A stretch of DNA of 64,000 nt from Escherichia coli (GCF_044324875.1 NZ_CP172185.1); one strand, 5' to 3'. Positions 10,501-10,530 are shown, counted from the stretch's first letter. Made by a program: numbers and translations. The notes: a model not told the origin generated them from the letters alone.

Positions 10501-10530
10501 GTGAACAACCTGGAACAACCACGAACAAAT
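10501..10530. repeat. Three tandem 10-bp GAACAA-type repeats (GTGAACAACC TGGAACAACC ACGAACAAAT)
   Basis: Direct repeats with helical periodicity between capsid operon and divergent gene; same family at 3353-3370, 17316-17360, 18705-18790. Confidence 0.6.

What the first reader, a model, noticed from the sequence alone, without database searches (positions are those of the whole stretch)
10501..10530. GAACAA-type 10-bp tandem repeats recur at internal promoters (capsid operon leader and int-alpA intergenic) as well as at the att arms
GTGAACAACC TGGAACAACC ACGAACAAAT lies ~215 bp upstream of the capsid start and ~75 bp upstream of the divergent plus-strand gene. A four-unit array in the same orientation as the minus-strand genes sits between int and alpA (17316-17360). 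The same motif family occurs near attL and attR. One helical-turn periodicity and the same motif at recombination sites and at operon leaders suggests a single island protein, AlpA being the obvious candidate, that couples excision to activation of the packaging operon.
Basis: partly seen in the sequence, partly recalled or inferred. Interest (0 to 1): 0.55.

Follow-up and report, generated by a model that had tools for sequence, protein, structure and literature searches.

The report
Predicted AlpA operator arrays in cf-PICI
A phage-parasitic island in E. coli carries the same 10-bp-spaced TTGTTC/GAACAA repeat arrays at both recombination arms, upstream of its master regulator gene alpA and upstream of its capsid operon; these are most likely the undescribed binding sites that let AlpA couple excision to switching on the island.

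Summary
The window holds four strong arrays of (T/G)G(A/G)AACAA units at exact 10-bp spacing. They lie at 3352-3381, 10501-30, 17314-73 and 18700-29, all inside a 15.6-kb capsid-forming PICI inserted in tqsA. None occurs in 48 kb of backbone, and about 0.15 arrays are expected by chance.

The arrays are conserved in register in hundreds of related E. coli islands, including the studied prototypes EcCICFT073 and the EcCIEDL933-type element. Classical PICIs have three arrays (two arms plus the alpA upstream region). cf-PICIs add a fourth, 19 bp upstream of a sigma-70-like capsid promoter.

Next to each arm array sits a 12-bp tandem doublet (ACTACACC). This doublet changes with the integrase type and matches the annotated P4 arm-repeat layout, so it is the likely Int site. 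The arrays do not change with Int.

AlpA has an excisionase-type winged-helix fold. Published work shows it activates its own promoter region and is needed for excision.

The best reading is that the arrays are AlpA operators, in the manner of P2 Cox, P4 Vis and TorI. Binding is inferred, not shown. This is a new member of a known kind and of moderate interest.

The parts
3232..3240 (+). Left copy of the 9-bp direct repeat TGCTGTTAT (crossover core) where the island interrupts tqsA.
   Evidence: tqsA is annotated as split in the near-identical locus L003.
3313..3336 (+). 12-bp tandem doublet TTAACTACACCA TTAACTACACCG in the int-distal arm. Candidate Int arm-type sites.
   Evidence: The doublet motif changes with the Int N-terminal domain across islands. 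Phage P4 has the same 12-bp doublet layout, annotated as attP arm repeats.
3352..3381 (+). Arm array TGAAACAACG TGGAACAAAT AGGCACAAGA in the int-distal arm.
   Evidence: The array is conserved in L001, L003, L006, L007 and L008.
10288..10325 (-). Hairpin GTCCTGG...CCAGGAC followed by U8, immediately before the capsid ATG. It is terminator-like and contains the AGGA ribosome-binding site.
   Evidence: The fold of the ~170-nt leader gives z = -4.67.
10456..10483 (-). Candidate sigma-70 promoter of the capsid/packaging operon: -35 TTTACT (10483-10478), 16-nt spacer, -10 TATTCT (10461-10456).
   Evidence: Read from the sequence. A -35-like TTTAC(T/A) lies at the same distance from the array in divergent cf-PICIs. 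The site scores 8 of 12 matches, below the 9-of-12 threshold of the scan tool.
10501..10541 (+). The reported array (three GAACAA units, 10501-10530) plus the conserved ATAATTTACAA element. Read toward the capsid it is TTGTAAATTAT TTGTTCGTGG TTGTTCCAGG TTGTTCAC.
   Evidence: A 44-nt block is identical in L007 while the flanks diverge. The element marks the upstream boundary of the conserved packaging module in 23 divergent leader variants.
10533..10561 (+). Promoter-like site for the divergent ORF 10603-11076: -35 TTTACA, 17-nt spacer, -10 TAAACT.
   Evidence: Islands with homologues of this ORF also have a TAnnnT hexamer 17 nt after the same TTTACA.
16845..17033 (-). alpA gene (62 aa). The product is a Phage_AlpA family protein with an excisionase-type winged helix-turn-helix fold.
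17040..17100 (-). Weak second periodic array (ACACAA, ACACAT, ACGCAA, ACACGA at about 10 bp) just upstream of the alpA ribosome-binding site.
   Evidence: It scores below the null maximum, so it is tentative.
17196..17231 (+). Hairpin plus T6. It would terminate plus-strand transcription that converges on alpA.
   Evidence: A compensatory A-T to G-C change is seen in L007.
17314..17373 (-). Largest array, with 5-6 units: (GATACAACG) GCGAACAATG TGAAACAACG TGGAACAACC ACGAACAAGA. It lies between int and alpA.
   Evidence: The ACAA cores are invariant at a 10-bp period across 22 distinct variants, while the linkers vary.
17408..18637 (-). int gene, encoding a P4-type tyrosine integrase with an N-terminal arm-binding domain.
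18661..18684 (+). 12-bp tandem doublet GTGACTACACCA GTGACTACACCG in the int-proximal arm.
18700..18729 (+). Arm array GGCTACAACG TGAAACAAGC TGGAACAAGA in the int-proximal arm.
18763..18792 (+). Weaker array ATGAACAAAC TGAAACATTA TGAAACGGCA, nearer the core.
   Evidence: Its score of 17.0 is within the null range. It is conserved in L007 and L008.
18813..18821 (+). Right copy of the core repeat TGCTGTTAT.

Best explanation
The arrays are head-to-tail operator sites for the island's AlpA protein, a small winged-helix excisionase and activator.

Shown here:
- The element is a capsid-forming PICI.
- It contains four phased arrays. One flanks each att arm, each next to a 12-bp doublet that behaves as the Int arm site. 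One lies upstream of alpA. One lies 19 bp upstream of a sigma-70-like capsid-operon promoter and 5 bp upstream of the -35 of a divergent accessory ORF.

Inferred:
- AlpA, once induced by a helper phage, polymerises on these 10-bp-phased sites.
- At the arms, AlpA bends the DNA and helps Int assemble the excisive complex.
- At its own upstream region, AlpA gives the positive autoregulation already measured in EcCICFT073.
- At the packaging-module boundary, AlpA raises transcription of the capsid operon and, in this island, of ORF 10603-11076. Excision, early-operon expression and capsid production would then respond to one protein.
For: Non-randomness and restriction to the island.

Conservation in register:
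- PICIs at four other att sites share the arrays. Their AlpA is 92-100% identical, while their replication modules and accessory genes differ.
- Classical PICIs have three arrays. The cf-PICIs L007 and Sakai Sp7 (EcCIEDL933-type) have the fourth, upstream of the capsid gene.

Assignment of the doublets to Int:
- The doublet motif changes with the Int arm-binding domain. Variants seen are GGTGTAGT, TGTGTGGTCAGT, GTGTATCACAAG and TGTATAAACA. The YGTTY arrays persist across these types.
- L029 combines a type-B AlpA with an A-like Int and has the A-type doublet plus TTGTTCG x3.
- P4 has the same 12-bp doublets annotated as attP arm repeats.

Link between the capsid-side array and the arms:
- Capsid-side repeat units resemble each island's own arm repeats. 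In a permutation test, 1 of 720 permutations reached the observed diagonal sum.
- This holds in islands with a distant excisionase class, where both sets of repeats are TTACC-type.

AlpA as a DNA-binding excisionase:
- AlpA matches PF05930 with E = 5.6e-18.
- The model (pLDDT 88) best matches excisionases: GIsul2 Xis (TM 0.84-0.91), RdfS, TorI and Pukovnik Xis.

Literature:
- AlpA supplied in trans activates the alpA promoter region of EcCICFT073, and AlpA is needed for excision and induction (PMC6092414).
- An alpA mutation abolishes EcCIEDL933 induction (10.1101/2022.09.08.507074).
- alpA overexpression is used to drive EcCIEDL933 particle production (10.1101/2025.02.11.637232).
- TorI sites in KplE1 attL are xxGTTCGx units at a 10-bp period, placed between the core and the Int arm sites in the same orientation relative to int (PMC2951348; sequence).
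Against: - No binding or expression data exist for these sites. A literature search found no defined AlpA operator.
- The first part of the capsid-side element (TTGTAAATTAT-TTGT) is conserved in cf-PICIs with all excisionase types, including a very distant one. This points to a binder common to all of them, or to a basal promoter element.
- The array motif barely differs between AlpA types A-D, so there is no fine covariation with AlpA itself.
- In EcCICFT073, AlpA did not change a Pint reporter, although that region contains an arm array (PMC6092414).
- The alpA-upstream array is inverted relative to the other three. It lies about 190-240 bp from the only sigma-70-like site the scan found near alpA.
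- cf-PICI capsids are reported to form without induction (10.1101/2025.02.11.637232), so the capsid promoter has AlpA-independent activity.
- CP4-57, the source of the founding AlpA, shows no such arrays.
- TorI is only a remote relative of AlpA.
Confidence: 0.6

Rival explanations
1. The arrays are a second class of integrase arm-type sites, bound by the N-terminal domain of Int rather than by AlpA. Their internal copies would then be Int-dependent regulatory sites or relics.
For: - The arrays sit on both arms, right next to the doublets. Classical RDF sites usually occupy one arm only.
- In the distant (type F) islands, the arm array (ATACC/TTACC) and the doublet (GGTATCC) look like one motif in opposite orientations.
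- In L055, the capsid-side element resembles the doublet-like motif TTTAGTTATACG.
Against: - The doublets change with the Int arm-binding domain, whereas the arrays do not.
- The 12-bp doublet layout equals the annotated P4 Int arm repeats.
- The largest array lies in the region that AlpA alone activates in EcCICFT073 (PMC6092414).
- In type-B islands, arrays flank alpA even where cargo genes separate alpA from int.
Confidence: 0.12
2. The capsid-side element is bound by a factor other than AlpA, and its likeness to the AlpA-type arrays is coincidental or partial. The binder could be encoded by the packaging module, by the helper phage or by the host. Alternatively the element could be an UP-like promoter element.
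For: - TTGTAAATTAT plus the first TTGT unit is nearly invariant in 23 divergent leader variants, whatever the excisionase type.
- The element marks the boundary of the mobile packaging module.
- A structured leader with a terminator-like hairpin suggests further, post-initiation control.
Against: - In this window, 18 nt (TGGAACAACCACGAACAA) are identical between the capsid-side and alpA-side arrays.
- The later units change together with the island's own arm repeats (1 of 720 permutations).
- No other conserved DNA-binding gene is common to all islands that carry the arrays: PerC, YlcI/YnfO and the replication modules all vary.
Confidence: 0.15
3. The array at 10501-10530 serves only the divergent accessory ORF (10603-11076) and has nothing to do with the capsid operon.
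For: - The array ends 5 bp from a good -35/-10 pair pointing at that ORF.
- Islands with homologues of the ORF keep a -10-like hexamer at the same spacing.
Against: - Most cf-PICIs, including L007, Sakai Sp7 and about 40 IMG/VR loci, lack the divergent ORF. In its place they have a terminator of the upstream gene, yet they keep the array at the same distance from the capsid promoter.
Confidence: 0.05
4. The arrays are replication iterons, or chance low-complexity repeats.
For: They are short direct repeats at helical phasing, as iterons are.
Against: - The arrays stay constant while the replication module changes (RepA helicase, P4-type primase, DUF5906, other primase).
- A separate CCCCAC repeat cluster lies next to the helicase gene and is the likelier ori.
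- Chance is excluded.
Confidence: 0.02

Closest known systems
P2 Cox and its cox-box arrays, including the array upstream of P4 PLL
   Same: Both are small excisionases that also regulate transcription. Both bind arrays of short direct repeats at about 10-bp phasing, in the att region and next to promoters. P4 carries CTTTAAGTGG CTTTAAATGA CTTTAAGTGG, three 10-bp units, upstream of its late promoter and the vis gene. This is the same geometry as the three units upstream of the cf-PICI capsid promoter. That Cox binds these units and activates PLL rests on my own knowledge of the P2/P4 literature.
   Different: Cox is encoded by the helper phage and acts on the satellite in trans. Here the protein and all its sites belong to the satellite. 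The motif differs (TTAAAG versus TTGTTC), and Cox is not a PF05930 protein.
P4 Vis
   Same: Vis is an AlpA-family protein of a satellite. It is needed for excision, binds attP and regulates the late promoters (summarised in PMC2603039). The P4 att arms have the same 12-bp tandem doublet layout.
   Different: Vis represses PLL and acts in a differently organised element. Its site sequences could not be retrieved here. P4 has no packaging operon of its own.
KplE1 (CPS-53) TorI
   Same: Footprinted sites CAGTTCGT/TGGTTCGC/CAGATCGT form a 10-bp-phased block between the core and the Int arm sites, on the int coding strand and overlapping the int promoter (PMC2951348). The core GTTCG resembles TTGTTCG here. 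TorI is also a transcriptional regulator, acting as a repressor of intS.
   Different: TorI is only remotely related to AlpA: 26% identity over 42 aa, PF05930 E = 0.16 and TM 0.64. Its sites are described on one arm only, and no late-operon site is known.
AlpA of EcCICFT073, EcCIEDL933 and EcCIMP1 (Gram-negative PICI master activator)
   Same: It is the same protein family, 95% identical in EcCICFT073. The same arrays are present in those elements. Positive autoregulation and a requirement for excision and induction are published (PMC6092414, PMC11773190).
   Different: The published work defines no binding site and no direct target at the packaging operon. That link is the new element here.
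RdfS (ICEMlSymR7A) and GIsul2 excisionase structures
   Same: These are the best structural matches to the AlpA model (8C3T with TM 0.84-0.91, and 8DGL). They are MerR-like winged-helix excisionases.
   Different: They come from different mobile elements, and their DNA sites were not compared here.

Membership tests
Excisionase (RDF) operator arrays of the Xis/Cox/Vis/TorI kind | Three or more short direct repeats, head to tail, at about one helical turn. | tested here: met
   Units at exact 10-bp spacing, 3 to 6 per array. Across 22 variants, only the ACAA cores are invariant.
Excisionase (RDF) operator arrays of the Xis/Cox/Vis/TorI kind | Located in an att arm between the crossover core and the Int arm-type sites. 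| tested here: met
   On the int-proximal arm the order is core, array, 12-bp doublet, int. On the distal arm it is core, doublet, array. KplE1 attL has the same order.
Excisionase (RDF) operator arrays of the Xis/Cox/Vis/TorI kind | The element encodes a small winged-helix excisionase. | tested here: met
   PF05930 with E = 5.6e-18. The model's best structural matches are excisionases.
Excisionase (RDF) operator arrays of the Xis/Cox/Vis/TorI kind | The protein binds the repeats (footprint or EMSA), and mutating the repeats abolishes excision or regulation. | not testable with these tools
   No binding data were found. Only genetics on alpA itself is available (PMC6092414).
Integrase arm-type sites (as a classification of the GAACAA arrays) | The motif changes when the Int arm-binding domain changes. 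| tested here: not met
   The arrays stay YGTTY across Int types that are 43-92% identical in the N-terminus. The adjacent doublets change instead.
Capsid-forming PICI (cf-PICI) | int, alpA and replication genes plus a full head and packaging module (capsid, protease, portal, connectors, HNH, TerS, TerL). About 15 kb, with no tail or lysis genes. | tested here: met
   PHROG assignments. The element spans 15.6 kb between direct repeats. Its capsid region is 96.9% identical in DNA to that of Sakai Sp7, the EcCIEDL933-type element.
Capsid-forming PICI (cf-PICI) | Induction by a helper phage and transfer using helper tails. | not testable with these tools
   Known for EcCIEDL933 only (10.1101/2022.09.08.507074).
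Pseudomonas aeruginosa AlpA-type antiterminator | A single binding element between -35 and -10, a protein that enters the RNA exit channel, and a terminator downstream. | tested here: not met
   That AlpA uses a C-terminal HTH around residues 128-142 and the site GGGACG (PMC9371919). The protein here has 62 aa, and its sites are multi-unit arrays upstream of promoters.
Replication iterons | Adjacent to the ori and rep gene, and covarying with them. | tested here: not met
   The arrays are unchanged across four replication-module types. Other repeats lie next to the helicase gene.

The most novel reading that the evidence does not exclude
The regulatory element at the boundary of the cf-PICI packaging module is a portable socket. 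Its 10-bp repeat units are re-tuned to whichever recombination-module DNA-binding protein the recipient island carries. They are GTTC-type in islands with AlpA types A-D and TTACC-type in islands with a distant excisionase class. The excisionase filament would then directly and bidirectionally switch on both the capsid operon and the variable accessory (possibly anti-phage) gene next to it. This would be a general rule for how satellites wire a stolen head module to their excision switch.
Probability: 0.3. Interest if true: 0.6.

Novelty: new member of a known kind. Interest (0 to 1): 0.45.

Why it matters
AlpA is the master switch of Gram-negative PICIs, yet no operator or direct target has been described in the literature I could search. 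The arrays give a concrete candidate operator: TGRAACAAC units at 10-bp phasing.

They also give four testable sites, including one that would explain how capsid-forming PICIs tie production of their own heads to excision. That is useful for annotating satellites, for interpreting which helpers induce which islands, and for engineering PICI-based delivery particles.

Conceptually it extends a known principle, an excisionase doubling as a late-gene regulator as with P2 Cox or P4 Vis, rather than adding a new one.

Tried and rejected
1. Fine covariation between AlpA type and array motif. Types A-D all use YGTTY, so this test has no power. Only the distant type F differs.
2. CP4-57, the source of the founding AlpA. 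No phased arrays occur near intA or alpA.
3. TorI as a true family member. Sequence membership in PF05930 is not met, so TorI is kept only as an analogue.
4. Pseudomonas AlpA antiterminator. It is an unrelated protein architecture.
5. PerC-like, YlcI/YnfO and replication proteins as binders. Each is absent or replaced in some islands that keep the arrays.
6. An IHF site or cos site as an explanation for TTGTAAATTAT. There is no IHF consensus match. The cf-PICI preprint does not map cos. The 11-mer's second copy in this window's arm is absent from other islands.
7. Rfam search on the capsid leader found no family.
8. Promoter scans could not place the alpA promoter convincingly.
9. Literature searches for an AlpA EMSA or operator in PICIs, and for PDB entry 8C3T, found nothing relevant.

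Full report
**What is at the coordinates**

Positions 10501-10530 read GTGAACAACC TGGAACAACC ACGAACAAAT, as reported. Between int and alpA the + strand reads TTGTTCGTGG TTGTTCCACG TTGTTTCACA TTGTTCGCCG TTGTATC, which is 5-6 units of the same family on the minus strand.

Both island ends carry further units. These are TGAAACAACG TGGAACAAAT AGGCACAAGA at 3352-3381 and GGCTACAACG TGAAACAAGC TGGAACAAGA at 18700-18729. A weaker set lies at 18763-18792.

**Statistics**

- Chains of RAACAA at 9-11 bp occur five times in the window, against 0.15 expected. Chains of three or more occur twice, against none in 300 simulations.
- Four of the five chains are inside the island. The fifth, a two-unit pair at 33140, is compatible with chance.
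- A three-unit PWM scan finds exactly four strong sites, scoring 32-37 against a null maximum of 23.1. The PWM was trained on these sites, so this result speaks only to the absence of other sites.
- Single hexamers are barely enriched. The signal is in the phasing.

**The element**

The island runs from about 3232 to 18821. It is flanked by the 9-bp repeat TGCTGTTAT and splits tqsA.

It encodes the following:
- a P4-type integrase;
- a 62-aa AlpA;
- Icd-like ORFs;
- a RepA-type helicase;
- SSB;
- a PerC-like protein;
- a complete HK97-type head and packaging module: capsid, protease, portal, two connectors, HNH, TerS and TerL.

It has no tail or lysis genes. This is the capsid-forming PICI (cf-PICI) organisation described for EcCIEDL933 (10.1101/2022.09.08.507074).

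The capsid region is 96.9% identical to prophage Sp7 of O157:H7 Sakai, a 15.5-kb element at phoQ/roxA. About 530 of 5426 complete E. coli genomes carry a related capsid region. About 886 carry a related int-alpA region.

**Conservation**

I compared classical PICIs at phoQ/roxA (O157 JEONG-1266 and CFT073), at tqsA and at smrA/abgR, and a cf-PICI in yifB. AlpA is 92-100% identical among them and Int is 84-99% identical.

All of them have the two arm arrays and the alpA-upstream array. Their replication modules and accessory genes differ.

In 22 distinct variants of the alpA-upstream region, the ACAA cores are invariant at a 10-bp period while the 3-4-nt linkers vary. This is the pattern expected of phased protein contacts.

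The classical PICIs have no fourth array. The cf-PICIs L007 and Sakai Sp7 have it upstream of the capsid gene. In L007, a 44-nt block including the array is identical to the window while both flanks have diverged. There is no divergent ORF there.

**The capsid-side element across cf-PICIs**

A capsid-protein scan of IMG/VR returned 69 loci. When anchored, they give 23 leader variants that differ by more than 10%.

- Sequence upstream of the element is unrelated between variants. Conservation starts at TTGTAAATTAT TTGTTC.
- Two further units of about 10 bp follow, and these are lineage-specific.
- Then come 16-19 nt, then a -35-like TTTAC(T/A) and a -10 (TATTCT or TGTATATCT).
- A structured leader of about 165 nt follows.

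In the window the candidate promoter is -35 at 10483-10478 and -10 at 10461-10456. That places the unit cores at roughly -54 to -90.

The same TTTACA is the -35 of a promoter-like site (N17, TAAACT) for the divergent ORF 10603-11076. Homologues of that ORF in four other lineages keep a TAnnnT hexamer at the same spacing.

Most cf-PICIs have no such ORF. They have a terminator of the upstream gene in its place. The array is therefore primarily a feature of the packaging-module boundary. In this island it sits between two divergent promoters.

**Which protein: the doublets**

Next to every arm array is a tandem doublet with a 12-bp period: TTAACTACACCA TTAACTACACCG, and GTGACTACACCA GTGACTACACCG.

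Across islands this doublet changes with the Int arm-binding domain:
- GGTGTAGT in type A;
- TGTGTGGTCAGT where the Int N-terminus is 61% identical;
- GTGTATCACAAG (three copies) at 51%;
- TGTATAAACA at 43-48%.

L029 combines a type-B AlpA with an Int whose arm-binding strand region is A-like. It has the A-type doublet.

Phage P4, whose integrase is of the same kind, has 12-bp tandem doublets (TTGGGGGCAT) on both arms, annotated as attP arm repeats.

The doublets are therefore the likely Int sites, which leaves the arrays for a second protein.

**Which protein: AlpA**

AlpA is the only other DNA-binding protein common to all array-bearing islands.
- It is a PF05930 protein.
- It has a solved homologue annotated as an excisionase (8C3T).
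- A confident model (pLDDT 88) best matches the excisionases GIsul2 Xis, RdfS, TorI and Pukovnik Xis.

Published genetics also fit:
- AlpA supplied from a plasmid activates an alpA-promoter reporter of EcCICFT073. AlpA is also required for excision, replication and transfer (PMC6092414).
- That promoter region contains the six-unit array.
- The same holds in EcCIMP1 (PMC11773190).
- An alpA mutant of EcCIEDL933 is not induced (10.1101/2022.09.08.507074).
- alpA overexpression is used to produce EcCIEDL933 particles (10.1101/2025.02.11.637232).

**Link between the capsid-side array and the recombination module**

In this window, 18 nt are identical between the capsid-side and alpA-side arrays.

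Across six island classes, each capsid-side element shares the most 6-mers with the int-proximal arm of its own class, with one exception (L058). Only 1 of 720 permutations reaches the observed diagonal sum.

Islands L058, L062 and L063 carry a very distant 71-aa excisionase-like protein and a different integrase. Their arm repeats are ATACC/TTACC-type and so are their capsid-side units.

This supports the idea that a recombination-module protein reads the capsid-side element. In that class, however, the array and doublet motifs look related, so the test does not separate Int from the excisionase there.

**Precedents**

- The footprinted TorI sites in KplE1 attL are CAGTTCGT ca TGGTTCGC tt CAGATCGT. 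They are 10-bp phased, lie on the intS coding strand and sit between the core and the Int arm sites (PMC2951348). The order and orientation match those found here, and the core is similar. TorI is nevertheless only a remote relative of AlpA.
- P4 Vis is an AlpA-family protein that binds attP, is needed for excision and regulates late promoters (summarised in PMC2603039).
- P4 carries three 10-bp CTTTAAGTGG-type units upstream of PLL. From my own knowledge these are the cox boxes through which P2 Cox activates that promoter.

The mechanism proposed here is therefore a known kind.

**Caveats**

- Binding is inferred.
- The universally conserved TTGTAAATTAT-TTGT part does not vary with the excisionase type.
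- The alpA-side array is inverted relative to the other three and is far from the only sigma-70-like site found near alpA.
- AlpA did not affect a Pint reporter in EcCICFT073 (PMC6092414).
- cf-PICI capsids form without induction (10.1101/2025.02.11.637232), so AlpA can at most boost the capsid promoter.
- CP4-57 has no such arrays.
- The capsid leader folds strongly (z = -4.67) and ends in a hairpin plus U8 that contains the ribosome-binding site, directly before the ATG. This suggests an additional layer of control that I could not resolve.

**Verdict**

The most likely reading (about 0.6) is that these are AlpA operator arrays shared by the att arms, the alpA regulatory region and the cf-PICI packaging promoter. 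This is a new member of the class of excisionases that also regulate late genes. It is of moderate interest, because it supplies a testable operator for the PICI master regulator.

Noticed in passing
window 15472-15676 (-): Rfam hits within the Icd-like region downstream of alpA: a C4 antisense RNA (72 bits, above gathering), its a1/b1 target element and an isrK-like stretch. A P1/P4-style RNA immunity module may supply the repressor function that Gram-negative PICIs are said to lack.
   Followed up: no
window 12662-12875: A cluster of CCCCAC-containing repeats (TTTTGCTCCCCACTTTTT, three copies at 83-85 bp, plus shorter copies) lies immediately downstream of the RepA-type helicase gene. It is the likely replication origin.
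   Followed up: no
window 10288-10452 (-): The capsid 5' leader folds far better than shuffled sequence (z = -4.67). It ends in the hairpin GTCCTGG..CCAGGAC plus U8, directly before the ATG, and the hairpin encloses the AGGA ribosome-binding site. This could be an attenuator or a translational mask. Other cf-PICI lineages have different but equally structured leaders, with a conserved GTGGCACTCAGACGTGAGCCGCCAC hairpin.
   Followed up: partly
window 17196-17231 (+): A hairpin plus T6 would terminate plus-strand transcription coming from the YlcI/YnfO gene (16086-16268) and ORF 16317-16517 across antisense alpA. It is conserved, with a compensatory base-pair change in L007. Convergent transcription over alpA may help keep it silent.
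   Followed up: partly
window 10603-11076 (+): A 157-aa ORF with no PHROG, NCBIfam or PADLOC match. Homologues (48-57% identical) sit in the same divergent position in cf-PICIs of other lineages (L057, L059, L060, L065, L071). The site is one of the variable regions that a 2025 preprint expects to hold immune systems.
   Followed up: partly
window 17040-17100 (-): A second, weak 10-bp-periodic series (ACACAA, ACACAT, ACGCAA, ACACGA) next to the alpA ribosome-binding site. It is also visible in CFT073 and L007 but scores below the null maximum.
   Followed up: partly
L052 660-810: Three different 10-bp-phased arrays lie back to back upstream of a type-D alpA: TTTTTGCA (x3-5), TTGTCTC (x3) and YYGTTCR (x6). 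No integrase homologue was found on the 15.7-kb contig.
   Followed up: no
L058, L062 and L063 (IMG/VR cf-PICIs at a tRNA gene): A cf-PICI lineage with a distant 71-73-aa excisionase-like protein and a 474-477-aa integrase. Both its arm repeats and its capsid-side repeats are TTACC/ATACC-type instead of GTTC-type.
   Followed up: partly
window 11406-11687 (-): A PerC/Pch-family activator gene. Its equivalent is annotated as pchE in Sakai Sp7. It is absent from some related islands.
   Followed up: no
L001 versus L081 (phoQ/roxA site of O157:H7): The same chromosomal att site holds a classical PICI in strain JEONG-1266 and the cf-PICI Sp7 in Sakai. The arm modules are nearly identical, which suggests exchange of the morphogenesis module within one int/alpA backbone.
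   Followed up: no
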